A DNA stretch of 64,000 nucleotides from Desulfatiglandales bacterium. Lineage in GTDB: Bacteria > Desulfobacterota > DSM-4660 > Desulfatiglandales > Desulfatiglandaceae. Under the pieces are notes generated by a model. That model saw only the letters and a list, made by a program, of their open reading frames with translations. It did no database searches and was not told where the DNA came from. Both the position numbers and the translations under genes were made by a program. The DNA lies in NCBI GenBank assembly GCA_963662465.1, contig OY759599.1, positions 6,784,001-6,848,000 of the forward strand. Direction: 5' to 3'. This document shows positions 1 through 62,186 of this stretch, piece by piece. Position 1 is the first letter of the stretch. Every line of letters starts with the position of its first letter.

Positions 1-1662
1 ATACCTGCCGAGTCTCGTATAAGCCCTTCCAAGAACGGTAAAATACCAGGGAGGAGGTAAAGGATTTAATCGAAGTGCTTTTTTCAGTGATGTTAGTGCT
101 TCATTAAATTGGCCAATTTTGAATAGATAATAGCACCGAATTACGTAAATGTCCGGCCAATTGGGATCCATTTTGATGGCCTTATCGAACTGTTCTAAAG
201 CTTTCTCATCCTTTCCCACAAAAGTATAAACAGCGCCCATTGTTTCGTGAGCAAAAGGACAGGAGTTATTTACGGTTAGAGCTTTTTGGGCGAGTTCAAA
301 TGCTTTTCCGATTGATTCCTTCGGAGTTTTACTCACGCACATTCCCACTTCGGCCAAATAGCCCCAAGCGAGATAGGCATATGCTGCCCCATAGTTTGGA
401 TCTAGTTCGATGGCTTCCTGGCATTTTTGCATGGATAATTTGTTTCCCTCCACATCCCCCTGCCAACCGTAATACATAGCCTCAATGAACTTTAAATAAG
501 CACCAACATTATTTGTTCCTCTCGCGCAAGGACCTACACCGATGCCACCAATTATCTTGATATGAAGAGATTGCGATATTTTTAATGCAATTTCATCTTG
601 TAGGTCGAATATATCGTTAATATTGCGGTCATAAGTCTCCGCCCAAAGATGATTGCCATTCTTAGTATCAATGAACTGGGCCGTCACACGTATCCGATCC
701 CCAGATTTCTGAATGCTTCCTTCAAGTACATAATGAACATTTAGTTGCTGTCCCAATTCTTTAATATTTACGGGCTTGCCCTTAAAGGTAAAGGTCGTGT
801 TACGGGCGGTAACGGAAAGGTCTGGAATTTTGGCAAGTACAGTAATGATATGCTCTGTGAAACCATCGCAAAGATATTGTTGTTTTGGATCGCCAACCAT
901 ATTGGTGAAAGGCAGAACAGCGATAGAATTCTTCTCAGACATTGGGTTCAGCGGTTTTTTCGCCGAATCAGACGAAATGCTTTTGAGGGGTGATTTAGCG
1001 TCTGTTGGAAGTGAGTTTTGGTTTGGATAAAGACGCCAAAATGCAAGAGCAGCTCCGAGGATTACAAGAACAACCATCACCACGACTTTTTTTCTCCCCA
1101 ATTTCAATTTTCTTTCCGGTTCTGCAGCATCCTCGTGATCTAAGGATATCTTGTAAACCTTTATCGGTTTAGCGATATTCTTTACTGTGTGCTTACCAAT
1201 AAAATGAAATCCTAATTCCAACTTGTTTTCGATTTGCTCATAACCGCTTCCAGAAATACAGATTCCACCACCATCAGCCAATGATTCGATCCTAGCAGCA
1301 ATGTTTACTCCGTCACCGTAAATGCGATCAGCATCTTGAATAACATCGCCAAGGTTTATGCCCATTCTGAAAATCATCCTGCGATTTTCAGGCAGTTCCT
1401 CATTCTTGTCCTTCAGAGCTTTCTGGATTTCAACCGCACACTGGACAGCATCCACTACACTGGCGAATTCAGAAAGAATATTGTCACCGGGAGAATCCAC
1501 CACACGCCCGCTGTGCCTTTGGACGATTGCAGAGAAAATTTCGCGGTATTCAGTAATGGTTTTGACCGTGGCAATCTCATCGTCGCCCATGAGGCGACTA
1601 TAGCCTTGAACATCTGCGCTAAGTATGGCTCTGAGTTTTCTTACAACTCTATTTGGTTCCAT
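1..1662 (-). CDS. Class III adenylate/guanylate cyclase + TM + TolB-like + TPR protein; 3' end lies outside the window
   Basis: Not in the ORF track because it has no stop in the window. ATG at 1662 with GGAGG RBS. Translates as MEPNRVVRKLRAILSADVQGYSRLMGDDE...GINLGDV...YGDGVNIAARIE and ends in TPR-like RLNPLPPPWYFTVLGRAY. Confidence 0.9.
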   Translation of the reverse strand, partial: MEPNRVVRKLRAILSADVQGYSRLMGDDEIATVKTITEYREIFSAIVQRHSGRVVDSPGDNILSEFASVVDAVQCAVEIQKALKDKNEELPENRRMIFRMGINLGDVIQDADRIYGDGVNIAARIESLADGGGICISGSGYEQIENKLELGFHFIGKHTVKNIAKPIKVYKISLDHEDAAEPERKLKLGRKKVVVMVVLVILGAALAFWRLYPNQNSLPTDAKSPLKSISSDSAKKPLNPMSEKNSIAVLPFTNMVGDPKQQYLCDGFTEHIITVLAKIPDLSVTARNTTFTFKGKPVNIKELGQQLNVHYVLEGSIQKSGDRIRVTAQFIDTKNGNHLWAETYDRNINDIFDLQDEIALKISQSLHIKIIGGIGVGPCARGTNNVGAYLKFIEAMYYGWQGDVEGNKLSMQKCQEAIELDPNYGAAYAYLAWGYLAEVGMCVSKTPKESIGKAFELAQKALTVNNSCPFAHETMGAVYTFVGKDEKALEQFDKAIKMDPNWPDIYVIRCYYLFKIGQFNEALTSLKKALRLNPLPPPWYFTVLGRAYTRLGRY

Positions 1663-1795
1663 CACCGGCCTCCAAGATAATTGAGACTGAAAAAAAGACT
1701 ATGAGCAGGGCTGTACATATGGATTGTATCTATAATACGAAACGAATCTATAAATGCCAAATACCAAATTTGGGGGTTCTACGTCTTTGAAGGCT

Positions 1796-3919
1796 CTCAC
1801 GGTAGGAACGCCGGTCACCCAGCGCCCCCCGCACAGTCCCGGACGTGCGGTTTTCCCGCATCCGGTTCCTCGGTTGTACTCGCTTTCGCGCAAAGCATCA
1901 GCATTAGCAAAACACCTTTCGTGGCCGGGGTGCCGTCGGTAGCTTCGGTTTGGCGATCCCCAGGCGATTTATGGCCCGGTTGAAAGCCTTCCAGGTGAAA
2001 CTTCTCCGCTTACCCCCTCTTCGGTTCAGCCACTTAAACGCACAATCACTCGCCCATCGGTAAAAACGCCATAACGAATTGGCGTTCCCCACCACGCTGT
2101 AATAGTTGTAATGTCCGCGCAGTTTGCGGTTGAGCGTCTTTATGAACGCAATCCCCTTCAAATGTCGGTTTTCCTTCACCCATTCCTTGATGCGCCTGCA
2201 GGCACCCTGCAGCTTTTTACGGCCGGTGCGCTGCATGACTCTCACCTTTCCCTGTTTGTCATAGGTCCAGTAGGTCTCAAAACCCAAAAAGACAATCCGC
2301 CTGCGCATGCTCGGATCAAAACGACTGAATCGCATCATGGCGGTTTTATCAGGCGCTACACTGAGGCCAAACTTCAAAAGCCTTTCGGGCAGCACGTGGA
2401 AAAACCCTTTTGCCTCTTTTTTGTACTGAAAAGCACAGACAAAATCATCTGCGTACCGAATGATCATGGCGGCCCCTTTACAGTGGGGCTTCACCACCTT
2501 TTCAAACCATAAGTCAAGGGCAAAATGCAGGTAGACATTGGCCAAAACCGGCGATACAATCCCCCCTTGGGGAGTACCGCTGTCCGGATGGATAATTTTG
2601 CCATCCGTATCCAGAATGCCGGCTTTAAGCCATTTTTGGATCAGATTTAAAAACGGCGCATCATCAACTCTTTCCATGAGCATTCGCATCAGCCAATCAT
2701 GGTCCATATGGTCGAAAAAGCCTTTGATATCGGCCTCGACGACATATCCATATGATCCAAACTGAAGTTCAAAACGCAAATCATTGACAGCGTCTTTTGC
2801 GCTTCGGTTGGGCCTGTAACCATAGCTGACATTCAGAAAGTCAGCTTCGAATATGGCTGTCAGGAGTTTGGCACATGCCAATTGCACCAACCGGTCTTCA
2901 AGGGCCGGAATGCCCAAGGGGCGTTGTTTGCCGTTTTCTTTGGGGATGTAACTTCTGCGTACCAGTTTGGCACGGTAACGTCTGGTTTTCAATCGCTCCG
3001 CCAATGACGCGATATTGGCCTCAAGATTTCCTTCGTAGGCCTCGGCCGTCACTTTGTCCACACCACTGGCTGCATCCTTATTCAGGTCTTTCCAGCAGGC
3101 ACGGAGAAACGGCGCGTTCAGACACCGGTAAAGGTCTTGAAAGCGGTGTTTTCCATCAACTTTTGCCTTAATGGCTATTCCCTGCAGTGAGGTTGGCTCG
3201 TATTGTTCCAGCCCTACATTGTCCGGTGCGAGTTTCCTTTGCAGACTGCGTACTTCCGTCAGGTCCTTCCCCATGTGGTGGGCTTTCCCCACCGCTGAGT
3301 AGTATGCCTGATAAGACACCCCATTGGCGTATAGAGGGCCATCGGAGGTCCGATTTTCCTCCCACCCGGTTGTTCCTTTCAGCATTTCGGCTGTGTAGTG
3401 AACCACTGTTACTTTACCTCACCGTCAGTGTGAAATAAACTCCCTGGAGCCTTTGGGGCTTCCCGAGTTCTACGGCGCATCTCTTCCTGCATGCCACGGC
3501 CTGAGGACTCCGGCGGACCTCCACATCCTCGCCATAAACGGATGCTTCCGTGTTGCCTTCGGTGAACGTTCAAACCCTCGGCGTCCGCAATTGCTATTTC
3601 GAAGCTGTACCAGCACTTCAGGGTGCGCGATCACCCCTGCGGCCTACAGGATACTCTGCCTACGCTTAACCCATCTTGTTCGCTGCTTCCACCGTTAGGT
3701 GGGGTGAGTCCATCCGCCTATTTGCTCATCCCTGAGCGCGGCTCGTTTCCAACCAGCATATGAATGCCGATGTCCTACACCTGACAGACTGAACAACTCC
3801 GCCATGGGTCCAAGGCTCGATACGGGTGGGTGGCTAACCCTTACAGAAAGCCATTACTGATTTTCCTCCCGACAGGGACTTTCACCCTGCAAGATACGCC
3901 GAGCTTTCCTCGGCGCGAG
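1796..3919 (-). mobile_element. Group II intron, bacterial class E-like, inserted just after the GTT of an integron core site
   Basis: 5' end CTCGCGCCGAGGAAAGCTCGGCGTATCTTGCAGGGTGAAAGTCCCTG. DV/DVI GAACCGGATGCGGGAAAACCGCACGTCCGG...CCTACCGTGAG at about 1796-1870. Boundaries uncertain by 1-2 nt. Confidence 0.85.
1904..3274 (-). CDS. ltrA: Group II intron reverse transcriptase/maturase, no endonuclease domain (start uncertain)
   Basis: RPLGIP, GTPQGG, YADD motifs and an X domain; N-terminus TSLQGIAIKA...RFQDLY resembles class E. Confidence 0.93.
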   Translation of the reverse strand: MGKDLTEVRSLQRKLAPDNVGLEQYEPTSLQGIAIKAKVDGKHRFQDLYRCLNAPFLRACWKDLNKDAASGVDKVTAEAYEGNLEANIASLAERLKTRRYRAKLVRRSYIPKENGKQRPLGIPALEDRLVQLACAKLLTAIFEADFLNVSYGYRPNRSAKDAVNDLRFELQFGSYGYVVEADIKGFFDHMDHDWLMRMLMERVDDAPFLNLIQKWLKAGILDTDGKIIHPDSGTPQGGIVSPVLANVYLHFALDLWFEKVVKPHCKGAAMIIRYADDFVCAFQYKKEAKGFFHVLPERLLKFGLSVAPDKTAMMRFSRFDPSMRRRIVFLGFETYWTYDKQGKVRVMQRTGRKKLQGACRRIKEWVKENRHLKGIAFIKTLNRKLRGHYNYYSVVGNANSLWRFYRWASDCAFKWLNRRGGKRRSFTWKAFNRAINRLGIAKPKLPTAPRPRKVFC

Positions 3920-4047
3920 AACGTTTTAGTTAACAGGCGAACGGGCAAGAAAGAAATATGCGACCAATCCACCCGGAAGCGTGATACGGAAAAATCAATT
4001 TCAATTTGCTCCAATGACCAGTTTGCCTGTTCAACGGCTGGTTGGAC
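3920..4047 (-). other. attC of HUH cassette copy 2; R' interrupted by the intron
   Basis: GTCCAAC-cagcc-GTTGAACA...TGTTAAC-taaaac-GTT. Confidence 0.85.
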
Positions 4048-4307
4048 AGACCCGCGGGTCACACGCACATAGGTTAATGGGAGCAGAATCGCCGCTATGG
4101 AGATTAAACGATCTTTGCAGCTACCGCATGACTTCTTTTTGACCCATCATTCCGGTCTAAGCCAGTTAAAAATGATAAAATTTCTTTTTTTGATCGCATG
4201 GTCCCGCTAAAAATGCCAAAATATCGTGTTATTAGGCAGTTTACCAAACACCTCGACATCAAAAACCTTTCACTCGACTAAAGACCTTTCGACTGCGCAT
4301 GCTTAAT

Positions 4308-5483
4308 CTATGCTGCTTGGGCATGTATCATGTCCTGGACTTTATTGAACCTCGGAAGCTCTCTTAACTTTTTGACCGGCGTCAATATTTCCAGAGTTAT
4401 GAGGCGTTTCCCGCAAACAGGGCAACAATCCGGTCGCTCGTCGCTTCGCTGTTGCCAGAGACTCTGCCAATCCAGGAATTCCAGACTTTCAAGAGGCGGT
4501 TGACCCAGTATTTCCCGGCAGAGTGCCAGTTCTTCTTTTGAGCTGTGATGATAGAGTCCGTATGAACGCACCATCACGGTATTCGCTAGGGGGACGTGTT
4601 GCAGATAGCGGCTGATAAAGGTTTGAATCGGCAGGGAGATGAGTTCCACCTTCTCACGACCGTAATTGAAGGTCACGTTCCCGTTTTCAATGCTGTAGAT
4701 GCGTTTGTTTGAAATTGGCCCGCCTCTCAAGTAACGCGCCAGGTAAATCAACACGCCTTCGCCGTATGAATAGGTCTCTTTGAGCTTGACGTTCCATTTT
4801 TTGCGGCGGCCCAGTTTATTGAAGAGGTTCCGGGCCTGCTGAGGCCCCATACCCTCGGGCAGAACCAGTTCGTTCCGATCCAGGGCTTTTCTCAAATAGT
4901 AGAGGTACTTGCCTCGAAATACCGCCCGGACGATGCCAAAGGGCAAAAGGAATTTTTTTGATGAAGCGATCCACTCGCCGGCGATCAGCCCACCGGCCGT
5001 TACCAGACAATGCAGATGCGGATGAAAGTCCAGTTTTCGGCTCCAGGTATGCAGTGAGGCGATGATGCCGACTTTGCCCCCCAAATGCTTCGGATCTCCA
5101 AGGAGTTCGGAAAGGGTTTCAGTGGCGCTTTTGAACAGCAGATTGCCCATAAGCTTGCGGTTCAACCGCCATAAGTCGTGCAATTCATCGGAGATGGTGA
5201 AAATAACATGGAAATGTTCGGTGTTTAAGATGCGAGCCTTTTGTTTTGCCAGCCAACGTTCCACCTGGGTAAAAGCGCAGAGGGGGCACATGCGATGTTT
5301 ACACGAGTTGTACCAGTGCATTTTGAAGTGACCGTCCGGGCACGCCTGCACGTGACCCCCCAGAGCAGATGTGCGGCAACTCATCAGACGGTGTGCCGCT
5401 TCACGAATATGTTCCGGAAGAAGATGGGTCTGATCATAGAGGGCATAGCCTATAAGAAAGATGCTCTGAATCGTCGCTTCCAC
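4308..5483 (-). CDS. IS91-like HUH (Y2) transposase with N-terminal Zn-binding domain, carried as a gene cassette (copy 2)
   Basis: CRT...GGH...C...YNSCKHRMCPLC, HUH motif FHPHLHCLV, YLARY; GTG start with GGAGG. Confidence 0.9.
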   Translation of the reverse strand: MEATIQSIFLIGYALYDQTHLLPEHIREAAHRLMSCRTSALGGHVQACPDGHFKMHWYNSCKHRMCPLCAFTQVERWLAKQKARILNTEHFHVIFTISDELHDLWRLNRKLMGNLLFKSATETLSELLGDPKHLGGKVGIIASLHTWSRKLDFHPHLHCLVTAGGLIAGEWIASSKKFLLPFGIVRAVFRGKYLYYLRKALDRNELVLPEGMGPQQARNLFNKLGRRKKWNVKLKETYSYGEGVLIYLARYLRGGPISNKRIYSIENGNVTFNYGREKVELISLPIQTFISRYLQHVPLANTVMVRSYGLYHHSSKEELALCREILGQPPLESLEFLDWQSLWQQRSDERPDCCPVCGKRLITLEILTPVKKLRELPRFNKVQDMIHAQAA

Positions 5484-5543
5484 TGAAACCTCCTTTATTT
5501 ACTGGGAGTTACGACGTTAGTTCCCCCGCTGTCCAGCGGGTCT

Positions 5544-5629
5544 GTCCAACGACAAGCTCAGCGGCCCCTCCACCGCCCCCCGCCAGAACCGACAGATTTT
5601 CAGGGGTCCGCTGGAGCGTTTGGTTGTGT
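5544..5629 (-). other. attC site (86 bp family)
   Basis: ACACAAC-caaac-GCTCCAGC...GCTGAGC-ttgtc-GTTGGAC. Confidence 0.9.
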
Positions 5630-5631
5630 CA

Positions 5632-5850
5632 TCAGGAATGTGCTACAAGACGGAGTTCGTAAATTCGCCCGTATTTTGCTGCTAGAGCCAGATTCTTCTG
5701 GCGAAGCGCATCCCTAGCATCATCCAGTCTGTACGCATCTTCAAGGTGAATATAGGGCGACCAGCCTGTTTCATCTTCTAGCAAGTTAACTTCAACCTCG
5801 GCTACGTATTTGCCCTCATGGATATACTTTAATTTCTTCCGCTGTTTCAT
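5632..5850 (-). CDS. Small hypothetical protein, partner of DUF4258 (putative antitoxin)
   Basis: MKQRKKLKYIHEGKYVAEVEV...; TAATG overlap with the upstream gene. Confidence 0.7.
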   Translation of the reverse strand: MKQRKKLKYIHEGKYVAEVEVNLLEDETGWSPYIHLEDAYRLDDARDALRQKNLALAAKYGRIYELRLVAHS

Positions 5851-6185
5851 TATTTTCGCCTCCGGGTGAATGTGGCGTCCCAACGGTCGGGATCTGGGCG
5901 ATATGCAGTGACTAGAACCGCAGGTCTGGTTTGACGTTTGGGGACGCCCCATACTGTATGAATAGGCAGGCCTTTTAAATCCTTCTGTAAAAGCAGTGCG
6001 CACGGTCCCTTTGGATAGTTTGGGTATTCCTCAACTACCAAAGCATTTCGAACCCCTATGACAACCTCTTTTGCGGTGATGCCATCATCAGCTAGCTCAT
6101 CATAGCCGTGCTCAGATATTTGCACATCACCGGAAAGTATTAATGTGTTTAATTTGTAAATGAATTTAGACACTTGATAACTCAT
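5850..6185 (-). CDS. DUF4258-like protein (putative toxin)
   Basis: ISEHGYDEL...VEEYPNYPKGPCALLL...PIHTVW...VLVTAYRPDP. Confidence 0.8.
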   Translation of the reverse strand: MSYQVSKFIYKLNTLILSGDVQISEHGYDELADDGITAKEVVIGVRNALVVEEYPNYPKGPCALLLQKDLKGLPIHTVWGVPKRQTRPAVLVTAYRPDPDRWDATFTRRRK

Positions 6186-6254
6186 CAAAACATATCAGTT
6201 TTTTGGCTCACAAAAAAATGCCCGCGTACCGACGTTCTTCACTGTATTAAAGAA

Positions 6255-6279
6255 GTTCTCATGCATTGCGCATGAGAAC
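6255..6279 (-). terminator. Probable intrinsic terminator after the lipoprotein gene
   Basis: GTTCTCATGC/GCATGAGAAC stem followed by TTCTTT on the minus strand. Confidence 0.5.
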
Positions 6280-6300
6280 CTATAACGGAGCTGAATTCGT

Positions 6301-6753
6301 TTATCTCTTTTTCAATGTGCTAAAGATATCAAAACCTTCTGACGGTGATTCTGTGATTATCTCTAACGTTTTTCCACTATTAGCAATTTCACCTAAGCTA
6401 TTGACCCATCCATGTATAGTATTAAACTTAATTTCCTTAATGTCATTGCCTTTCAACTGACCCTTGATTTTTTGGGATTCGGTCATCGGGAAATTACCGC
6501 TCTCCAAATTTCCCACAAATTGGTTTCCTTCTTGTTTAATATTGACAACGCCGTTTAGCGTAGACACCGTCCCTACTTGAGTAGTGATATCCCATTTTCC
6601 ATTCAAATCGTAAACAACTTCTCCATTGGAGAGTGTCAAAGTGTTTTGCATTCCGGATTTTAATGCACGTGTTTGCGCGCCATTCCTCATGGCTGAATTG
6701 CAGGCTGCAGTACATAAGAGAACAAAAATGCAGATCATAAACAATTGTCTCAT
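6301..6753 (-). CDS. Hypothetical lipoprotein (cassette gene)
   Basis: Signal peptide with lipobox-like TAAC; homologous to 48776-49231. Confidence 0.75.
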   Translation of the reverse strand: MRQLFMICIFVLLCTAACNSAMRNGAQTRALKSGMQNTLTLSNGEVVYDLNGKWDITTQVGTVSTLNGVVNIKQEGNQFVGNLESGNFPMTESQKIKGQLKGNDIKEIKFNTIHGWVNSLGEIANSGKTLEIITESPSEGFDIFSTLKKR

Positions 6754-6909
6754 CTAAATATTTACCTCCGTTAGAGTTTGTTTTGATTTTGTCAAAATAC
6801 TCCTGATTAAACCTTTCACTTATCTGCTGATTTCTAACGCTTTAGTCCCTCGTCTTCTAGGCGCATTTTTTTTATTCCTCACCTCCTTCCTTAATGTCAT
6901 CGAGGACCA

Positions 6910-7040
6910 CCACAACGTTTTAGTTAACAGGCGAACGGGTACGAAAAGACATACGACCAATCCACCCGGAACTGTGATAAGGAAAAATCAATTTCAAATT
7001 ACTCCGATGACCAGTTTGCCTGTTGAACGGCTGGTTGGAC
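6910..7040 (-). other. attC of HUH cassette copy 1
   Basis: GTCCAAC-cagcc-GTTCAACA...TGTTAAC-taaaac-GTTGTGG. Confidence 0.9.
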
Positions 7041-7273
7041 AGAGCCGCGGGTCACCAGCACATATTTTATTGGAACCAGGCGCTCGGCTATGGAGATTAA
7101 GCGGCCTCCGCAGGTATCACAGGACGTTTTTTAACTCGTCATGGCCGGTTATGAATGATAAAATTCCTTTTTTTTGTTGCATAATCTTTCAAAATATACT
7201 GAAATATCAAGCTATTTACCTTTTTACCAAACACCTCGCCATCATACATCTTTAGGATATGCTCTTGTTTGAT

Positions 7274-8449
7274 TTATGCTGCCTGAGCATATATCGTACC
7301 CGGGTCCTTATTGAATCTCGGAAGCATTTTTGACTTTTTTACCGGTACAAGTATTTCCAGCGTGATGAGACGTTTCCCGCAAACAGGGCAACGGTCCGGC
7401 TGCTCGTCGCTTCCCTTTTGCCACAGGGTCTGCCAATCCAGGAATTTCTGGTTTTCAAGGGGCGGTTGACCCAGTATTTCCCGGCAGAGGGCAAGTTCTT
7501 CTCCCAGGCTATGATGATAGAGCCCGTATGACCGCACCATTACGGAATTCGGCAAGGGAACGTGTTGCAGGTAGCGGCCAATAAAGGTCTGAATGGGCAA
7601 GGAGATGAGGTTTACCTGCTCACGACCGTAGTTGAAGGTCACGTTCCCGTTTTCAACGCGGTAGATGCGCTTGTTTGAAATCGGTCCGCCTCTCAGATAC
7701 CGAGCCAGGTAAATTAAGACCCCTTCTCCGTATGAATAGGTCTCCTTGAGTTTAACGTTCCATTTCTTGCGGCGGCCCAGCTTATTGAACAGGTTCCGTG
7801 CCTGTTGGGGCCGCATGCCCTCGGGCAGAACCAGTTCTCCCCGGGAAAGGGCCATCCTCAAATAGTGGAGATATTTGCCTCGAAACACCGCCCGGACGAT
7901 ACCAAAGGGCAAAAGAAACGTTTTTGATGAAGTAATCCACTCACCGGCGGCCAACCCACCGGCCGTTACCAGGCAATGCAGATGCGGGTGAAAGTCCAGT
8001 TTTCGGCTCCAGGTATGCAATGAGGCGATGATGCCGACTTTCGCGCCCAAATGCTTTGGGTCTCCAAGAAGTTCGGAAAGGGTTTCTGTGGCGCTTTTGA
8101 ATAGCAGATTGCTCATTACTTTGCGGTTCAACCGCCATAAGTCATGCAATTCATCGGAGATAGTGAAAATAACGTGGAAATGTTCCGTGTTTAAAATACG
8201 GGCCTTTTGTTTCGCAAGCCACCGTTCAACCTGGGTAAAAGCGCACAGTGGGCACATGCGATGTTTGCACGAGTTGTACCAGTGCCTCTTTAAATGGCCG
8301 TCCGGGCAGGCCTGCACGTGGCCCCCAAGAACGGAAGTGCGACAAACCATGAGACTGTGAGCAGCATTACGTATATGTTCAGGAAGACAATGTGTCTGAT
8401 CATAGAGGGCATAGCCGAGAAGAAAGATGCTCTGAATCGTCGCTTCCAC
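7274..8449 (-). CDS. IS91-like HUH transposase cassette (copy 1, first position after attI; diverged paralogue)
   Basis: Same Zn, HUH and YLARY motifs; 391 aa. Confidence 0.9.
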   Translation of the reverse strand: MEATIQSIFLLGYALYDQTHCLPEHIRNAAHSLMVCRTSVLGGHVQACPDGHLKRHWYNSCKHRMCPLCAFTQVERWLAKQKARILNTEHFHVIFTISDELHDLWRLNRKVMSNLLFKSATETLSELLGDPKHLGAKVGIIASLHTWSRKLDFHPHLHCLVTAGGLAAGEWITSSKTFLLPFGIVRAVFRGKYLHYLRMALSRGELVLPEGMRPQQARNLFNKLGRRKKWNVKLKETYSYGEGVLIYLARYLRGGPISNKRIYRVENGNVTFNYGREQVNLISLPIQTFIGRYLQHVPLPNSVMVRSYGLYHHSLGEELALCREILGQPPLENQKFLDWQTLWQKGSDEQPDRCPVCGKRLITLEILVPVKKSKMLPRFNKDPGTIYAQAA

Positions 8450-8510
8450 TGATATTTCCCTTTATTACTAGTAATTTACGACGTTAGTTCCCCCGCTGTC
8501 CAGCGGGTCT

Positions 8511-8650
8511 GTCCAACCATTGATTATCAGGTCATTTTGCCCTGATAATAGGCCAATCCCTTTATTATCAAGGCATTTCCGCTTTGATATTGAATTATCA
8601 GGCAATTTTGCCTTGATATTGATGTTAAATCCTGTTATCAAGGCAAAACT
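8511..8650 (-). other. attI region of integron 1 (core GTTGGAC at 8517-8511) with upstream palindromic repeats
   Basis: The first cassette starts at this GTT with no attC upstream; lies 214 bp before the divergent intI. Confidence 0.75.
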
Positions 8651-8730
8651 TATTGGGGTCATATGGATCATAGGTTTACAATCCTTCCCTATTTTACAAT
8701 AACCGCTACAGTATAAAGAGATGAAATTCA

Positions 8731-9711
8731 ATGTCAACAAAAAACCAGAAACTAATGGATGATGTTCATTCGGTTATGCGGCTCGGGCATTATTCGATTC
8801 ACACGGAAAGATCCTATTGCGATTGGATTAAGCGTTTTATACTTTTCCATGGTATGAAATCTCGTAATGATCTTCAGGGCGCCGAAAGTAAGATCGAGCA
8901 ATTTTTGACCCATCTCGCTGTCAAAGGCAATGTTTCTCCTTCAACTCAGAATCAAGCCATGAACGCCCTTGTATTTTTGTATAAGAAGGTTCTCAAAGAG
9001 TCTCTTGATGGCAGGATTGATGCCGTTCGTGCGAAAAGAAAGCAAAACATTCCCGTGGTTCTCACCAAGGATGAGGTGGTTTCCGTGATCGCGCTCATGC
9101 AAGGAACACCGCAAGTCTTTGTGAAACTGCTTTATGGCAGCGGACTGAGGATGATGGAAGGCATACGGCTGCGCGTTCAAGATATTGAATATGACTTAAA
9201 GGAAATTACCGTGCGTTCGGGGAAAGGGAACAAGGACCGGATTACTACGTTTTCCGTTTCCCTGGCGCCCCTGTTGAAAAGCCATCTTATAAGGGTCAAG
9301 GCGATTCATGAGAAGGATCTTGCTGAGGGAAACGGCGCCGTTTATTTGCCCTACGCTCTGGAACGTAAATATCCCAATGCCGCCAGGGAATGGCAATGGC
9401 AATACGTTTTTCCGTCCGGCAATTTGTCGCGTGATCCCAGAAGCGGTCGGATCAGGCGCCATCATATTGATCCTTCCGTCATCAATAAGGCCATAAAGGT
9501 GGCAGCCAAAAAGGCGGATATTCATAAACGCGTATCCTCACACACATTCCGCCACAGTTTTGCAACTCACCTCTTGCAGCGCGGAACAGACATCCGTACG
9601 ATTCAGGCGCTTTTGGGTCATTCTGACGTTTCCACTACCATGATTTATACTCACGTCCTTCGGCAGGGAGGTCATGGTGTTGTAAGCCCCCTTGATGATC
9701 TTGATCTATGA
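8731..9711 (+). CDS. intI: Integron integrase, intact
   Basis: [21 protein letters not shown], IntI-specific patch [40 protein letters not shown]. Confidence 0.97.
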
Positions 9712-40267: not shown

Positions 40268-40290
40268 AGAAAAGAAAGGTGGAAATGAGC

Positions 40291-42372
40291 ATGAGCAATA
40301 AAATCAATGCTGAACATATTAGTCGGGAAGCATGTATATATATCCGTCAGTCAACACCGGGCCAAGTTCTACAGCATCGTGAAAGCCAACTTTTACAATA
40401 TGGCTTGGTAGAAAGGGCAAAAGAATTAGGATGGAACGAGAAAAACATATGGATGATAGATAGTGATTTGGGAATAACTGCATCGGGATGCGTTGACAGA
40501 AAAGGATTCCAGAATCTTCTTTCATCTGTGTGTGAAGGAAGAATAGGGGGTATTTTCTCGATTGAATCATCGAGGTTGGCCCGCAACGGTCGAGAGTGGC
40601 ATACGTTGCTTGAGATCTGTGCACTTAAAAAAACGGTTCTTGTAGATCAAGGAGCTGTTTATGACCTAAACGTGTCAAATGATCGTTTGCTCCTGGGCTT
40701 AAAGGGAGAAATGAGTGCAATGGAATTGAGCCTATTAAAGGAACGTTCTCAGGCGGCAATACAACAAAAAGCGAAGCGGGGAGAATTATATCTTACTGTA
40801 CCGGCAGCCTATATAAAGACCAGGGATAATAAGCTGAAAAAGAATCCTGACAAACGAATTCAAGAAGTCATTGATTTGGTATTCACGAAATTCAAGGAAT
40901 ATGGCGCCCTTCGTCGGGTGTATCATTGGTTTTTAGATAAACAGATTGAGATTGCTGTTGTTTCCAGCGGTAAAGGGGAACGTAGGATAGAGTGGAAACT
41001 ACCGTCTGCTCATACCTTCTCGCATATAGTGAACAACCCAATTTACGCCGGCGCCTACGCCTATGGCCGGACTAAAACAGAGGTAACTTTTGAAAATGGG
41101 CGCAAGCGACTGAGGAAGGGTATTCGTAAGGAACAAAAGGATTGGGACGTTTTAATATTGGATCACCATGAAGGTTACATCACATGGGAAGAGTACCAGT
41201 ATAACATGGAGATACTAACTCAAAATACAAATAAGAAAAGGCCGGTGGTGAGAGGAGCTGTTCGCGGAGGAAAGGCATTGCTTGGAGGTTTGTTAAGATG
41301 CGGTCATTGCGGTAGAAAGTTAATTGTACGATACCAAGGCCGTAATGGAACTCATAAACGTTATGAGTGTAGCCGCAAACGAGGTAACGAGACAGGAAAG
41401 GCGTGTATATCATTTGGTGGATTCCGTGTTGACCGGGCTGTTACGGATTTTCTTTTGAAAGTATTATCACCGATAGGATTAGAAGCTTCTTTAGAGGCGA
41501 TAAAGAAAATCAACCATGAATCGGATTCAGTGAAACGGCAACGGGAACTGGAGTTGGAACAAGCGCGTTATGAAGCTTTACGGGCAAAACGTCAATACAA
41601 TGCAGTGGACCCTGATAATCGTTTGGTAGCATCTACATTGGAGAAGGATTGGAATGACGCTCTTGTTAAGGTAGCAAGATTGGAGAATGAGATTACCGCT
41701 ATGGGGTCGAACACCCCTTCGCTTTCCCCTGAGGAAGAGACCGAGATCAGAGATCTGTCACAAGATTTACCTCGTGTATGGAATGATCCGTGTTGCTCTT
41801 TGGATTTAAAGAAGCGTATAATCCGGACGGTTATCAAAGAGATCGTTGTTTATTTGGAAGAGCAAAAGATCAAATTAATCATTCACTGGGAAGGGGGTGA
41901 GCATACGGAATTGGAGGTACTGAAGAATAAGTCTTCCAGTTACCCATTGAAAACCGATGTTGATACAAAAAAGATAATATCCGATTTGGCTAGAATTATG
42001 CCTGATAAACACATCGTGGCCTTTCTCAACCGTGTGGGTACAAAGACTACAAAGGGATATACCTGGAATCCGGTAAGGTTGCGTTCATTTCGAAATAGGC
42101 ATAATATCCCTGTATATCATGAAGGAGAGAGGCAGCGACGAGAAGAATATACGGTAGCTGAAGCAAGCGAAAGGCTGGGTATTGGCAGCACCAAAGTTTG
42201 GAGACTTATACAACATGAGATTCTACCCGCCAAGCGAGTATGTTCCGGTGCTCCATGGATCATTTCAAAAAAGGACCTTGAATCTGAAGTGATAAAAAAG
42301 GCAGCTCATTCCGGGCTTCCAAAGAGCCCGCTTTCAAGAAACTCAAAACAACAAGTCTTTAATTTTCAATAA
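40291..42372 (+). CDS. Large serine recombinase (resolvase + recombinase + Zn ribbon + C-terminal HTH)
   Basis: YIRQST, SRLARN, NPIYAG, LRCGHCG. Confidence 0.93.
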   Translation: MSNKINAEHISREACIYIRQSTPGQVLQHRESQLLQYGLVERAKELGWNEKNIWMIDSDLGITASGCVDRKGFQNLLSSVCEGRIGGIFSIESSRLARNGREWHTLLEICALKKTVLVDQGAVYDLNVSNDRLLLGLKGEMSAMELSLLKERSQAAIQQKAKRGELYLTVPAAYIKTRDNKLKKNPDKRIQEVIDLVFTKFKEYGALRRVYHWFLDKQIEIAVVSSGKGERRIEWKLPSAHTFSHIVNNPIYAGAYAYGRTKTEVTFENGRKRLRKGIRKEQKDWDVLILDHHEGYITWEEYQYNMEILTQNTNKKRPVVRGAVRGGKALLGGLLRCGHCGRKLIVRYQGRNGTHKRYECSRKRGNETGKACISFGGFRVDRAVTDFLLKVLSPIGLEASLEAIKKINHESDSVKRQRELELEQARYEALRAKRQYNAVDPDNRLVASTLEKDWNDALVKVARLENEITAMGSNTPSLSPEEETEIRDLSQDLPRVWNDPCCSLDLKKRIIRTVIKEIVVYLEEQKIKLIIHWEGGEHTELEVLKNKSSSYPLKTDVDTKKIISDLARIMPDKHIVAFLNRVGTKTTKGYTWNPVRLRSFRNRHNIPVYHEGERQRREEYTVAEASERLGIGSTKVWRLIQHEILPAKRVCSGAPWIISKKDLESEVIKKAAHSGLPKSPLSRNSKQQVFNFQ

Positions 42373-42406
42373 CGTACGGAGGTGTGTATTATGCCGCTAT
42401 TACCCT

Positions 42407-43301
42407 GGGGGACGTGTTGCAGATAGCGGCTGATAAAGGTTTGAATCGGCAGGGAGATGAGTTCCACCTTCTCACGACCGTAATTGAAGGTCACGTTCCC
42501 GTTTTCAATGCTGTAGATGCGTTTGTTTGAAATTGGCCCGCCTCTCAAGTAACGCGCCAGGTAAATCAACACGCCTTCGCCGTATGAATAGGTCTCTTTG
42601 AGCTTGACGTTCCATTTTTTGCGGCGGCCCAGTTTATTGAAGAGGTTCCGGGCCTGCTGAGGCCCCATACCCTCGGGCAGAACCAGTTCGTTCCGATCCA
42701 GGGCTTTTCTCAAATAGTAGAGGTTCTTGCCTCGAAATACCGCCCGGACGATGCCAAAGGGCAAAAGGAATTTTTTTGATGAAGCGATCCACTCGCCGGC
42801 GATCAGCCCACCGGCCGTTACCAGACAATGCAGATGCGGATGAAAGTCCAGTTTTCGGCTCCAGGTATGCAGTGAGGCGATGATGCCGACTTTGCCCCCC
42901 AAATGCTTCGGATCTCCAAGGAGTTCGGAAAGGGTTTCAGTGGCGCTTTTGAACAGCAGATTGCCCATAAGCTTGCGGTTCAACCGCCATAAGTCGTGCA
43001 ATTCATCGGAGATGGTGAAAATAACATAGAAATGTTCGGTGTTTAAGATGCGAGCCTTTTGTTTTGCCAGCCAACGTTCCACCTGGGTAAAAGCGCAGAG
43101 GGGGCACATACGATGTTTACACGAGTTGTACCAGTGCCTTTTGAAGTGACCGTCCGGGCACGCCTGCACGTGACCCCCCAGAGCAGATGTGCGGCAACTC
43201 ATCAGACGGTGTGCCGCTTCACGAATATGTTCCGGAAGAAGATGGGTCTGATCATAGAGGGCATAGCCTATAAGAAAGATGCTCTGAATCGTCGCTTCCA
43301 C
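42407..43301 (-). pseudogene. IS91-like HUH transposase cassette copy 3, 3'-truncated
   Basis: Matches copy 2 with 3 amino-acid differences up to YLQHVP, then diverges. Confidence 0.9.
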
Positions 43302-43361
43302 TGAAACCTCCTTTATTTACTGGGAGTTACGACGTTAGTTCCCCCGCTGTCCAGCGGGTCT

Positions 43362-43422
43362 GTCCAACGGGCTCTTCAGCGGGCGCGGCTTTTTGCGATC
43401 CGCTGAAAGAGCTTGGTTATGC
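43362..43422 (-). other. attC site
   Basis: GCATAAC..CTTTCAGC...GCTGAAG-agccc-GTTGGAC. Confidence 0.88.
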
Positions 43423-60568: not shown

Positions 60569-62186
60569 ATTTCCGGTTTTTTCAGAGGCTCATTATGATT
60601 TGCCGGTTGAAAGCCGGCATGAAATTATTATTGACAAAGATAAATGGCATGGCGTATGCATTCCGTATATTGTGCGTATTTGTAATATTGAACATCCAAT
60701 AGGAGGGCATATCATGATTCCAGTTCCGCCAGACATCATAGCGCGTTTTCAGCATTTTCTGGATCGGAAACCCGTTCAAAAGCGATTTCAGGCATATTAC
60801 AAAAAATGGCTTCGATTTTACTGGGATTTTTGCCAAAAATATCATCATCCGGTCTCAAAATATGAAAGCCTCAGTCATTTTATCGAAAAACTCCATCAGA
60901 AAAAACAGAAAGATTATCAAATCAAACAAGCCTCGGATGCCGTTTCTTTGTATTATGAAATCGTCAAAGACAGGCCCTCGGTTGCCGAACATGTGACAAT
61001 TCGAAAGAATGCTTCCGTCAAAAAGGCCGAGATCTTTCCAGATAACGATACAAGTGTTTTTGTCGCGCCCGCCGAGAAACGTTCAAATGCCGTTCAAGCC
61101 GGGCCTGTGGACGTCCCGCTCTCCCGGACGGGTTGTTGGGTTTCGGGGAACAAAAATTCGCCGGAGGCGATATCAAAAACTACCTGTCAAGAGGCGGATC
61201 GAAAACCTTCCGGGTTTTTTGACAAAACTGTTTGCAATAAACGGCAAACATCGGATCAACCGGTTGAAATCGGCACAAGCTGGAAATTCGCCTTTGATGG
61301 CCTCCGTGATGAGATCATGGTTCGGCAGTATTCTCCCAAGACATTGAAGAGCTATTCAATGTGGGTCCGCAAGTTTCAGGCCTTCACCAAATCCAAAACG
61401 TTGGCATCGGTCACCGACGAAGATTACAAAGCCTTTTTGACATTTCTGGCTGTGAAAAGAAAGGTGTCCGCTTCAACTCAGAATCAAGCATTCAATGCCT
61501 TGTTGTTCTTTTTCCGTCATGTTATGAAACGGGAACCTGGCGACATAAAGAACGTTGTCAGAGCAAAGCAGAAACCGTATAGGCCGGTGGTGTTGTCGAG
61601 GCGGGAAATTGATCTGGTTTTGACGCATCTTTCCCATCCATATGACCTCATCGTGAAATTGCTCTACGGTTGCGGATTACGATTGTTTGAATGTCTCAAC
61701 CTTCGCCTTAGTGATTTCGACCTCGAGGGTTGTATGTTGACCGTACATGACGGCAAAGGAAAAAAAGACCGCTCCATTCCTTTGCCGGAAACGGTCATAC
61801 CGGAAATCCGTAACCAATTCGATGTGGTCGCCGATTTGCATGAAAAGGATTTGAATGCCGGGTACGCCGGCGCCTTCTTAAAGGGGCGGTTGGATAAAAA
61901 GTATAAAAATGCGGCCAAAGAATTGGCTTGGCAATGGGTTTTCCCCGGCCTTTCTCTTACCACCGTTAATTCTACTTTGTCATTCTCCATTTGAGGGTTA
62001 TTTTCAATATATGCTATTGATTTAATTTATATTTTTCTCTTGACATGGTCAGAATAACATGTTAGTTTCGACCCATGAAAAAACGAAATCAATGGGGCGT
62101 TGGTATGAGTACCAACAGCCCACCAGAACAATCGTAGTCTTGATAAAGGAGCGACCCATGCCAACAGCCCCCTCGGGGGCATAGAT

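What the first reader, a model, noticed from the sequence alone, without database searches (positions are those of the whole stretch)
3920..8517. Solo IS91-like HUH transposase packaged as an integron gene cassette, three copies across two integrons
Seen: each copy (7274-8449, 4308-5483, 42407-43301) starts at a GTTGGAC core, and the two complete copies end in their own attC of about 130 bp. No tyrosine-recombinase partner gene is included and no TSD is visible. A 42 bp leader with hairpin CCCGCTG-GA-CAGCGGG is identical in all three even though the copy 1 ORF has diverged. In copy 2 the cassette ends are complementary over 15 bp (GTTGGACAGACCCGC), next to the palindrome GACCCGCGGGTC. Copy 1 occupies the attI-proximal slot; copies 2 and 3 differ by 3 aa. 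Known: HUH enzymes nick ssDNA hairpins, and IntI recombines folded single-stranded attC. Inference: a selfish cassette that makes its own ssDNA circle by rolling circle and uses IntI to integrate. It might also mobilise or help create neighbouring cassettes.
Basis: partly seen in the sequence, partly recalled or inferred. Interest (0 to 1): 0.88.

Follow-up and report, generated by a model that had tools for sequence, protein, structure and literature searches.

The report
Transposase gene living as integron cassette
A rolling-circle (IS91-type) transposase gene is built as an integron gene cassette with its own recombination site, and it has multiplied within this genome and many others, probably by using the integron's own integrase.

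Summary
The window holds two complete cassettes and one truncated cassette that encode a 391-aa IS91-family HUH/Y2 transposase. Each begins at G|TTGGAC. The two complete ones end in their own canonical attC of 131-132 bp. Copy 1 is the first cassette after attI of an intact intI.

The genome holds 17 such copies. Eight stand in an identical tandem array at another attI. An identical ninth copy stands at the attI of a third integron.

Relatives at 37-88% identity were found in 73 loci from many phyla. They share a core GTT heptamer, a 3-nt spacer and a hairpin with compensatory stem changes. They also share a CCATAG box and an R'' box complementary to their own 5' core. Nine sit directly beside a divergent intI.

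The sister clade is a set of two-gene IS91 elements (IntI-like recombinase plus transposase) with the same cis elements. The cassette form is therefore a recombinase-less version that most likely uses the resident IntI. That the transposase supplies single-stranded circles is plausible but not shown.

One member is on record by name only: gcISKpn22 of class 1 integron In722. This scan had already noted the eightfold array in this genome and two-gene relatives in other genomes.

The parts
8731..9711 (+). intI, complete integron integrase (326 aa), divergent from the cassettes
   Evidence: TIGR02249 at 454 bits (cut-off 265), plus Phage_integrase and SAM_4 domains
8710..8737 (-). Pc-like promoter pointing into the array (TTGACA, 16 nt, TATACT)
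   Evidence: 11 of 12 consensus matches. This is a consensus match only. The total number of hits in the region equals the shuffled expectation.
8518..8730 (.). attI region with repeated TTATCARG-type inverted motifs. The crossover lies between G8517 and T8516.
   Evidence: Sequence. The same last 31 nt precede another copy at C1:3747483.
6916..8516 (-). Cassette copy 1 (1601 bp), first cassette of integron 1
   Evidence: Limits set by loss of homology at GTT on both sides
7274..8449 (-). tnpA copy 1, 391 aa, IS91-family HUH/Y2 transposase
   Evidence: NF033538 at 348 bits; PF04986 and PF14319. It is 88% identical to copy 2, with dN/dS 0.11.
8476..8517 (-). 42-nt leader of copy 1: core 8517-8511, spacer AGA, hairpin 8507-8492 (7-bp stem, 2-nt loop)
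   Evidence: Identical in the three window copies. The first 26 nt are exact at 15 sites in the genome. The geometry is conserved in relatives.
7088..7093 (-). CCATAG box of copy 1, 47 nt before R''
   Evidence: Box found in 61 of 67 sequences with at least 250 nt downstream. It is also present in two-gene relatives.
6910..7040 (-). attC of copy 1 (131 nt; R'' GTCCAAC 7040-7034, R' GTTGTGG 6916-6910)
   Evidence: Sequence. The homologous junction in the tandem array folds as a canonical attC.
3922..5549 (-). Cassette copy 2 (1628 bp), last cassette of integron 1, followed by a group II intron
   Evidence: It lies within a segmental duplication (window 1-5626 = C1:6741436-6747061, 99.66% identical).
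4308..5483 (-). tnpA copy 2, 391 aa
   Evidence: NF033538 at 352 bits
5509..5550 (-). Leader of copy 2 (core 5550-5544, hairpin 5540-5525)
4049..4100 (-). 3' conserved block of copy 2: CCATAG box (4100-4095) and palindrome (4060-4049) abutting R''
3916..4047 (-). attC of copy 2 (132 nt; R'' 4047-4041, R' GTTCTCG 3922-3916)
5544..5629 (-). attC of the upstream cassette. Its R' is completed by the first bases of copy 2.
42407..43367 (-). Cassette copy 3, truncated. tnpA residues 1-299 are kept. The leader core is at 43368-43362. It is preceded by another cassette's attC (43362-43422).
60600..61994 (+). Broken intI of integron 2 (matches positions 3-224 of the 315-position model). A DDE insertion sequence follows at 62187-63512.
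   Evidence: TIGR02249 at 240 bits, partial. The rest of the gene lies near C1:6847906.

Best explanation
The element belongs to a subgroup of the IS91 family that has been reduced to a single gene and formatted as an integron gene cassette.

**Shown.** It has cassette boundaries at G|TT, its own canonical attC, and an intact HUH/Y2 transposase under purifying selection. It carries two conserved non-attC cis elements. One is a hairpin 3 nt inside the 5' core. The other is a CCATAG box 20-55 nt before R''. Its sister elements carry their own IntI-like recombinase. It sits repeatedly at attI and occurs in tandem arrays.

**Inferred.** The resident integron integrase carries out insertion and excision through the element's attC, mainly attI x attC. 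In doing so it replaces the lost partner recombinase.

The transposase acts on the conserved hairpin. On the bottom strand this reads hairpin, 3 nt, then GTCC or GTTC. That is the layout of an IS91-family terIS. Acting there, the transposase would produce extra single-stranded bottom-strand copies by rolling-circle replication.

The bottom strand carries the recombinogenic strand of attC, so such circles would be ready substrates for IntI. In a tandem array each hairpin-GTYC site could end one unit and start the next. That would give unit-length circles and a self-reinforcing amplification at attI.
For: **Cassette format**
- Three window copies and 15 of 17 genome copies begin with the same exact 26 nt after different upstream sequences: two types of attI, three different attC, and the element's own attC. 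All complete copies end at ...CG|TT.
- intI lies directly beside three of these sites.
- The cassette at two paralogous integrons is 100% identical, while their intI-attI regions are about 94% identical. Eight identical copies stand in tandem, period 1609 bp.
- A homologue at 37% identity is the fourth cassette of clinical class 1 integron In722. It lies between the aadA2 attC and the 3'-CS, with G|TT limits. PMC6262049 (passages) names it gcISKpn22.

**Enzyme**
- NF033538 scores 348-352 bits.
- The HPHLH motif and the two tyrosines (Y247, Y251) are invariant in 22 aligned sequences.
- dN/dS is 0.07-0.11.

**Cis elements**
- A fixed-geometry leader (GTT heptamer, 3 nt, perfect stem of at least 5 bp, loop of 2-4 nt) occurs in 33 of 60 loci. 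The rate at other GTT sites is 119 of 19,700.
- There are 38 distinct leader variants. Swapping 3' stem halves between them drops pairing from 97% to 41% (the 97% is partly by construction).
- R'' is the exact reverse complement of the element's own 5' core in 24 of 38 loci.
- The CCATAG box is present in 61 of 67 sequences.

**Context elsewhere**
- A divergent intI starts within 459 nt of the core in 9 loci, and within 3.4 kb in 16 of about 49 loci with enough flank.
- An attC abuts the core in 13 loci, against 5% at control sites.
- Tandem pairs occur in L007, L039 and L043, and L073 is a circularly assembled contig.

**Need for a recombinase**
- The sister clade has an IntI-like recombinase gene overlapping tnpA and the same leader, CCATAG box and attC-like end. 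It includes elements on Clostridium estertheticum and Rhizobium johnstonii plasmids and in L007 and L057.

**Strand logic**
- In IS91, terIS lies upstream of tnpA, with one subterminal palindrome next to a GTTC-type cleavage site. The functional intermediate is the bottom-strand circle (PMC13181058, passages).
Against: - No circle, nick or excision product was seen. In run X1 the depth of copy-2-type sequence is about 3-5 times the single-copy flank. This matches the 4-5 chromosomal copies, so there is no sign of a large free pool (contigs only, a weak measure).
- For a single, non-tandem copy I could not find a site at the right boundary where the transposase would start so that attC is included. 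The CCATAG box lies inside attC, on the tnpA side.
- The inverted-repeat covariation of the ends would also be expected if one protein simply binds both ends.
- In about 33 of 49 loci, no intI lies within the flank held. Some copies stand after an attI remnant without intI (L002; C1:3747483).
- The extra base in L'' is G on the top strand in copy 2 and in most relatives. In the aadA2 attC it is C. I could not test what that means for IntI.
- The In722 member lacks the CCATAG box.
Confidence: 0.55

Rival explanations
1. Autonomous attC/attI-homing IS91 element. The transposase alone cuts, circularises and inserts the element next to GTT cores. The attC-like end would be its oriIS, and IntI would not be needed.
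For: - The end layout parallels IS801 and IS1294: tetranucleotide and palindrome, then tnpA, then palindromes and tetranucleotide (PMC13181058, passages).
- GTTG, GTCC and GTTC lie within the R boxes.
- Relatives with the same ends live on plasmids without integrons.
- Some solo copies have no intI in the flank held.
Against: - All 17 genome copies and most relatives sit at integron crossover points, many at attI, which is IntI's preferred entry site.
- An unrelated IS91-family element in the same genome sits at scattered CTTG/GTTC sites outside integrons.
- The non-integron relatives all carry their own IntI-like recombinase. This suggests that a recombinase is required.
- The attC has the canonical R/L box layout with an extra base in L''.
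Confidence: 0.15
2. Passive cassette. An IS91 transposase gene was once captured as cargo. IntI, homologous recombination and unequal crossing-over account for the spread and the arrays, and the transposase does nothing for the cassette.
For: - Cassette duplication and tandem cassettes are known in large chromosomal integrons (background knowledge).
- Part of the copy number here is segmental duplication.
- There is no depth excess that would point to free circles.
Against: - dN/dS is 0.07-0.11, and the catalytic residues are invariant across relatives at 37-88% identity.
- The 5' hairpin and CCATAG box are conserved with compensatory changes and are shared with transposing two-gene relatives.
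- Nine identical copies stand at two attI sites whose integrases differ by about 6%.
- Multi-copy and tandem states recur in several unrelated genomes.
Confidence: 0.2
3. The hairpin is only an RNA-level element, for example a 5'-UTR structure that controls translation of tnpA transcribed from Pc, and not a DNA site for the transposase.
For: - It lies in the 5' UTR, 39-200 nt before the start codon.
- It is followed by a purine-rich RGA.
- A Pc-like promoter reads into copy 1.
Against: - It keeps a fixed 3-nt distance from the recombination core rather than from the start codon. Its distance to the start codon varies from 39 to 200 nt.
- Its 5' half and the spacer are mirrored at the 3' end before R''.
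- In two-gene relatives it lies upstream of the recombinase gene at the element's end.
Confidence: 0.1

Closest known systems
gcISKpn22, fourth cassette of class 1 integron In722 on IncN blaIMP-6 plasmids (INTEGRALL name, quoted in PMC6262049; passages read)
   Same: It is an IS91-family transposase gene inside a true cassette with G|TT limits and its own attC. It falls in the same clade as the window's protein (37% identity). It has a leader with a GTTGAAC core, a 3-nt spacer and an imperfect hairpin.
   Different: It sits in a clinical mobile integron, in fourth position and as a single copy. It has no CCATAG box. In the papers I could search it is known only as a name, with no analysis of its ends, relatives or mechanism.
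IS91, IS801 and IS1294 (IS91 family, HUH Y2 rolling-circle insertion sequences)
   Same: The transposase family is the same. A single subterminal palindrome lies next to a GTTC-type tetranucleotide upstream of tnpA. About 200 nt of non-coding DNA lies downstream of tnpA before the other end. There is no target duplication (PMC13181058 and PMC6218425, passages).
   Different: Those elements insert at GTTC/CTTG sites anywhere. This one is found at integron crossover points, carries a canonical attC, and has ends that form inverted repeats including the R boxes.
IS91-family elements with an upstream IntI-like tyrosine recombinase (two-gene subgroup, e.g. on C. estertheticum pCF001-A and R. johnstonii pRL10)
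   Same: This is the sister clade (SH-aLRT 97 for the two-gene set, 92 for the solo set; quick tree). It has the same core, 3-nt spacer and hairpin, the same CCATAG box, an R''-like box and an attC-like hairpin.
   Different: They carry their own recombinase, which lacks the IntI-specific insertion (184-198 bits on TIGR02249, below the cut-off of 265). They occur outside integrons. The window's element has no such gene.
ISCR1 of complex class 1 integrons
   Same: It is an IS91-related transposase linked to integrons, with about 232 bp of oriIS region downstream of the gene (PMC6218425, passages).
   Different: ISCR1 is not a cassette. It has no attC, sits in the 3'-CS, and is thought to move flanking genes by one-ended transposition.
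IS1111-attC elements and group IIC-attC introns (recalled from background knowledge)
   Same: They are mobile elements specialised on integron recombination sites.
   Different: They insert into attC as foreign bodies using their own machinery. This element is itself a cassette with its own attC.

Membership tests
Integron gene cassette | Limits at the G|TT crossover of attI or attC core sites, in several different contexts | tested here: met
   Homology between copies ends at GTT on both sides. Upstream partners include two attI types, at least three foreign attC and the element's own attC.
Integron gene cassette | Own attC with R''-spacer-L''...L'-spacer-R', AAC/GTT triplets and an extra base in L'' | tested here: met
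   attC at 7040-6910 and 4047-3916. The tandem junction folds into this structure, with z = -2.4 (top strand) and -3.8 (bottom strand) against shuffles.
Integron gene cassette | Lies in an array next to intI/attI, in the array's orientation | tested here: met
   intI scores 454 bits on TIGR02249. Copy 1 is the first cassette. intI also lies beside copies at C1:3288822 and C1:4425229.
Integron gene cassette | Excised and inserted by IntI | not testable with these tools
   Only contigs of public runs could be laid, and they gave no informative junction.
IS91 family | HUH/Y2 transposase with an N-terminal zinc-binding domain | tested here: met
   PF04986 at 164-165 bits, PF14319 at 83-85 bits, NF033538 at 348-352 bits. 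The HPHLH motif and Y247/Y251 are invariant in 22 sequences. That these are the catalytic residues is recalled, not tested.
IS91 family | Distinct terIS and oriIS ends with subterminal palindromes beside a tetranucleotide | tested here: inconclusive
   A terIS-like layout is conserved at the 5' end. No oriIS could be assigned. The CCATAG box is only a candidate.
IS91 family | Insertion beside GTTC/CTTG tetranucleotides at many kinds of site | tested here: not met
   All 17 genome copies lie at integron sites. A canonical-type family member in the same genome lies at scattered CTTG/GTTC sites.
IS91 subgroup with tyrosine recombinase | Recombinase gene directly upstream of, and overlapping, tnpA inside the element | tested here: not met
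   The core and hairpin lie 39-200 nt before the tnpA start, which leaves no room for a gene.
IS91 subgroup with tyrosine recombinase | Shared end architecture (core, 3 nt, hairpin; CCATAG box; attC-like end) | tested here: met
   Seen in L075 and L076.
gcISKpn22-type cassettes | Transposase in the same clade and the same cassette layout | tested here: met
   37% identity with E 8e-74. Limits read in L074. It lies inside the solo clade of 67 rows (quick tree, long branch).

The most novel reading that the evidence does not exclude
A two-enzyme relay between two single-strand DNA systems. The HUH transposase copies the cassette out as a bottom-strand circle. In tandem arrays each terIS-like hairpin-GTYC site ends one unit and starts the next. 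IntI then pastes the folded attC of that circle into attI. If this is right, these elements are self-amplifying cassettes. Together with their recombinase-bearing sisters, they would form a living bridge between IS91-type transposons and the IntI/attC system. Read-through at the hairpin could also package neighbouring DNA together with an attC, which would offer a route to new cassettes.
Probability: 0.3. Interest if true: 0.85.

Novelty: new variant of a known kind. Interest (0 to 1): 0.7.

Why it matters
Integron cassettes are usually treated as passive cargo. This widespread family instead encodes an enzyme that makes single-stranded DNA circles, which is the form of DNA that the integron integrase recombines. 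It keeps that enzyme's recognition hairpin at the cassette edge.

If the two enzymes cooperate, it would explain how a cassette can multiply: 17 copies here, eightfold arrays, and first position in many integrons. It would show that integrons can be parasitised from within. It would also give an experimental handle on how DNA becomes joined to an attC.

One member already sits in a clinical class 1 integron next to carbapenemase and aminoglycoside resistance cassettes.

Tried and rejected
- **Public reads.** Only Logan contigs were available, no raw reads.
  - The joint 3918->5547, which skips the 1628 bp of copy 2, has single-copy depth and only 25 nt on one side. It is most likely another locus where a similar attC is followed by the same intron family, not an excision product.
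  - Depth gave no sign of free circles.
  - The RNA run X8 held too little to speak of expression.
  - The joint 5546->6913 in run X3 shows two such cassettes adjoining in a second organism, nothing more.
- **First attC scan.** It was too strict and found nothing useful. The relaxed scan found 24 sites against 7-11 in shuffles. I used it only to see that hairpins lie between copy 3 and the second intI.
- **MAFFT alignment of leaders.** It placed no gaps in the loops, so column-wise pair counting was not possible. I counted stems in a script instead. The relaxed finder picks some false cores, and it feeds the distinct-variant count and the stem-half swap test, so those two counts include a few false cores. 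The fixed-geometry counts do not use it.
- **Co-movement of intI-attI with the cassette by read-through.** Rejected for the two paralogous integrons, because the cassette is identical while intI-attI is about 6% diverged.
- **Copy 2 and C1:6746985 as independent insertions.** Rejected, because they lie in a 5.6-kb or longer segmental duplication.
- **Matching the CCATAG box to a canonical oriIS.** The only canonical-type element I could delimit has CATAGG at the end next to its target tetranucleotide. However, that end lies upstream of its tnpA, so the geometries do not map onto each other. I left the box unassigned.
- **Literature.** Searches for IS91 with attC or cassette, PF04986 with integron, HUH with attC, ISKpn22, In722, and IS91 with tyrosine recombinase found no analysis of such cassettes beyond the name gcISKpn22.
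- **Tree.** The careful tree search did not finish, so only the quick tree is reported.

Full report
**What is in the window.**

The gene at 8731-9711 (+) is a complete integron integrase. It scores 454 bits on TIGR02249 against a cut-off of 265. The cassettes run leftwards from it on the minus strand. A promoter-like site at 8737-8710 (TTGACA, 16 nt, TATACT) points into the array.

The first cassette spans 8516-6916. The last cassette of this array spans 5549-3922. Each carries a 391-aa ORF (7274-8449 and 4308-5483). Both ORFs score as IS91-family transposase: NF033538 at 348 and 352 bits against a cut-off of 125, plus Y2_Tnp and the IS91 zinc-binding domain.

A third copy (43367-42407) lies in a second array, whose intI (60600-61994) is broken. 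This copy is cut off at residue 299 by an element that carries a serine recombinase gene.

- the GTTGGAC cores;
- the identical 42-nt leader with a 7-bp hairpin;
- the attC of 131 and 132 nt;
- the 15-nt complementarity of the ends in copy 2, and the palindrome;
- the three residue differences between copies 2 and 3.

The attC are canonical. Each has R'' GTCCAAC, a 5-nt spacer, an L'' with one base more than L', and a 6-nt spacer before GTT. Homology between copies ends exactly at GTT on both sides.

**The genome.**

The genome is a single contig of 8.16 Mb. It holds 17 copies at 80-100% protein identity and 15 distant IS91-family genes at 21-31%.

The first 26 nt of the leader occur 15 times, always exact. 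The sequences upstream of them differ:
- an attI beside the window's intI;
- a second type of attI beside intI genes at C1:3287696 and C1:4425405;
- three different foreign attC;
- the element's own attC.

In the two remaining copies, what looks like the end of a group II intron replaces the first six bases.

At C1:4412446-4425229, eight copies stand head to tail with a period of 1609 bp, starting at attI. An identical ninth copy is the first cassette of the paralogous integron at C1:3288822. The cassette is 100% identical between these two places, whereas the adjoining intI-attI segment is about 94% identical. The cassette therefore arrived recently and separately at the two sites.

Not all copies are independent. 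Window 1-5626, which includes copy 2, is part of a segmental duplication.

The transposase is under purifying selection, with dN/dS of 0.11, 0.10 and 0.07 between lineages. With dS at 0.59 between copies 1 and 2, a 42-nt leader without any change is not neutral.

**Relatives.**

A protein search found 3371 proteins with E <= 1e-30 among 5651 candidates. Many lie on contigs of about 1.5-1.7 kb, which is the size of the cassette.

In one genome per species, 105 of 125 candidate stretches encoded relatives. 80 were kept, in 73 loci, at 37-88% identity. The loci come from Thermodesulfobacteriota, Nitrospirota, Nitrospinota, Gammaproteobacteria, Burkholderiales, Halanaerobiales and others.

*Leader.* A leader of fixed geometry (GTT heptamer, 3 nt, perfect stem of at least 5 bp, loop of 2-4 nt) lies 30-230 nt before the gene in 33 of 60 loci with enough upstream sequence. 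The same pattern occurs at 119 of 19,700 other GTT sites. About a dozen more loci have an imperfect version visible by eye.

The stems differ between lineages but stay complementary. Among 38 distinct variants, exchanging the 3' halves lowers pairing from 97% to 41%. The 97% figure is partly a result of how the stems were chosen.

*R'' box.* About 200-300 nt after the gene, 24 of 38 loci have an R'' box that is the exact reverse complement of their own 5' core. Spacer and stem bases are often mirrored as well.

*CCATAG box.* This box lies 20-55 nt before R'' in 61 of 67 sequences with at least 250 nt downstream. I estimate the chance rate for this loose pattern at roughly 10-15%. No formal control was run.

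*Context.* A divergent intI starts within 459 nt of the core in 9 loci and within 3.4 kb in 7 more, of about 49 loci with enough flank. An attC abuts the core in 13 loci, against 5% of 313 control sites. The rest showed neither within the flank held. L002 has an attI remnant without intI.

*Multi-copy signs.* Tandem pairs occur in L007, L039 and L043. L073 is a contig with a 55-nt terminal overlap. Several short contigs begin and end exactly at the cassette limits, as expected of a multi-context repeat.

**A named member.**

A homologue at 37% identity (E 8e-74) lies on IncN plasmids of Klebsiella and E. coli. In pTHC11-2 it stands between aadA2 and qacEdelta1.

Its cassette begins at G|TTGAAC, directly after the aadA2 attC. 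It ends at ...G|TTAGAT, where I recognise the start of the 3'-CS from memory. It has its own attC and an imperfect hairpin 3 nt after the core.

PMC6262049 (passages) lists In722 as intI1, aacA4'-3, blaIMP-6, aadA2 and gcISKpn22, following INTEGRALL. PMC12772345 (passages) mentions In722 with and without ISKpn22.

My other searches found nothing on such cassettes.

**Sister elements.**

The best plasmid hits outside this clade are two-gene elements on Clostridium estertheticum (37%) and Rhizobium johnstonii (35%) plasmids. A 285-286-aa tyrosine recombinase gene lies directly upstream of tnpA, overlapping it in the Clostridium element.

The recombinase is 30% identical to the window's IntI but lacks the segment that sets IntI apart. 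It scores 184-198 bits on TIGR02249, below the cut-off.

These elements have the same ends:
- ATTGAAC, 3 nt and a hairpin before the recombinase gene;
- after tnpA, the CCATAG box, a box complementary to the core, and an attC-like hairpin.

The same kind of pair lies next to solo cassettes in L007 and L057.

In a quick maximum-likelihood tree of 74 rows, the 67 solo sequences, including the In722 one, form a group (SH-aLRT 92). This group lies beside the four two-gene sequences (SH-aLRT 97). Two canonical-type elements of this genome serve as distant outgroup. The careful search did not finish, and no row was dropped except proteins shorter than 330 aa. The tree does not say whether the recombinase was lost or gained.

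**How it most likely works.**

*Shown.* The element is a true cassette. The enzyme is intact and constrained. The element has two conserved cis elements that ordinary cassettes lack and that it shares with transposing relatives. It enters attI repeatedly and forms arrays.

*From the literature.* PMC13181058 (passages) reports the following for the IS91 family. terIS lies upstream of tnpA and has a single subterminal palindrome beside a GTTC-type cleavage tetranucleotide. oriIS lies downstream, beside a GTTC/CTTG target. The functional intermediate of IS91 is the bottom-strand circle. ISCR1 has a 232-bp oriIS region after its gene (PMC6218425, passages).

*Comparison.* The cassette's 5' end read on the bottom strand is hairpin, 3 nt, then GTCC or GTTC followed by AAC. 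This matches the terIS layout. It also matches one end of an unrelated IS91-family element in this genome, which reads hairpin, TAA, GTTC.

*Inference.* The resident IntI carries out insertion and excision through the attC, taking the place of the partner recombinase. The transposase makes extra bottom-strand copies, and that strand carries the recombinogenic strand of attC.

At a cassette-cassette junction, the predicted fold is a canonical attC whose stem runs on into the leader. Successive hairpin-GTYC sites would then delimit unit-length circles, which would make arrays self-amplifying.

I give the full relay model about 0.55. I give IntI-dependent insertion alone about 0.85, and a role of the transposase in the cassette's spread about 0.6.

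**What speaks against it.**

- No circle or excision product was seen. Contig depth of copy-2-type sequence fits the chromosomal copy number.
- For a single copy I cannot name the start site that would include attC.
- The covariation of the ends is also what a protein binding both ends would give.
- Many loci show no intI in the flank held.
- The extra base in L'' is G on the top strand in copy 2 and most relatives, against C in the aadA2 attC.

The rivals are an autonomous attC-homing IS (0.15), a passive cassette (0.2), and a hairpin that is only an RNA element (0.1). The last of these is compatible with the others.

**Novelty.**

That an IS91-type gene can be a cassette is on record by one database name. 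The following were not found in the papers I could search:
- the family and its conserved ends;
- its sister relation to recombinase-bearing IS91 elements;
- its bias to attI and its arrays;
- the strand logic that links the two enzymes.

This scan had noted the eightfold array in this same genome, and two-gene relatives in other genomes, before.

Noticed in passing
window 1700-3921 (-), RT ORF 1904-3406: A group II intron (RVT_1 plus GIIM domains) follows copy 2 on the same strand. It starts about 3 nt after the GTT of copy 2's attC. In two genome copies (C1:3339700 and C1:3354083), what looks like an intron 3' end replaces the first six bases of the cassette core. Earlier notes of this scan describe this intron family.
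   Followed up: partly
window 57703-59559 (-): A second group II intron reverse transcriptase is split into two ORFs (RVT_N plus RVT_1, then RVT_1 plus GIIM). It lies between the broken intI and the cassettes of integron 2.
   Followed up: no
window 60600-63512: The intI of integron 2 is cut after model position 224. A DDE_5 transposase gene (62187-63512) follows. The rest of intI appears near C1:6847906, just beyond the window.
   Followed up: partly
window 40279-42406: A 697-aa large serine recombinase gene (Resolvase, Recombinase, zinc ribbon and HTH_17 domains) ends exactly where cassette copy 3 is truncated. It probably marks the edge of an inserted element.
   Followed up: no
window 46091-47446 (+) and 50940-52295 (-): Two 451-aa DDE transposase ORFs with identical Pfam scores lie in inverted orientation. 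They flank about 3.5 kb that contains small ORFs. This may be a composite element inside integron 2.
   Followed up: no
window 5632-6188 (-): The cassette between the two transposase cassettes encodes a DUF4258 protein (112 aa) and an overlapping 123-aa ORF with no family hit. This may be a toxin-antitoxin pair.
   Followed up: no
G000 C1:381069, 506196, 1051497, 1525199, 1704359, 7213307: A canonical-type IS91-family element of about 1565 bp (23% identical transposase) lies outside integrons. One end adjoins flanking CTTG (4 of 6 copies), GTTC (1) or TTTA (1). The other end is a GC hairpin followed by TAAGTTC. The end next to the target lies upstream of tnpA, which is the opposite of the published IS91 drawing.
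   Followed up: partly
window 1-5626 = C1:6741436-6747061: A segmental duplication at 99.66% identity ends at the R'' side of an attC (window 5626). It includes chromosomal genes (adenylate cyclase/TPR), the intron and cassette copy 2.
   Followed up: partly
L006 and L007: Identical transposase cassettes occur in a Desulfobacteraceae bin and in a bin labelled as an archaeon from what look like companion assemblies. The contig may have been assigned to the wrong bin.
   Followed up: no
L002 5790-5933; C1:3747483: attI-like sequence is retained in front of the cassette without any intI nearby. L002 has about 140 nt of it. C1:3747483 has only 31 nt.
   Followed up: partly
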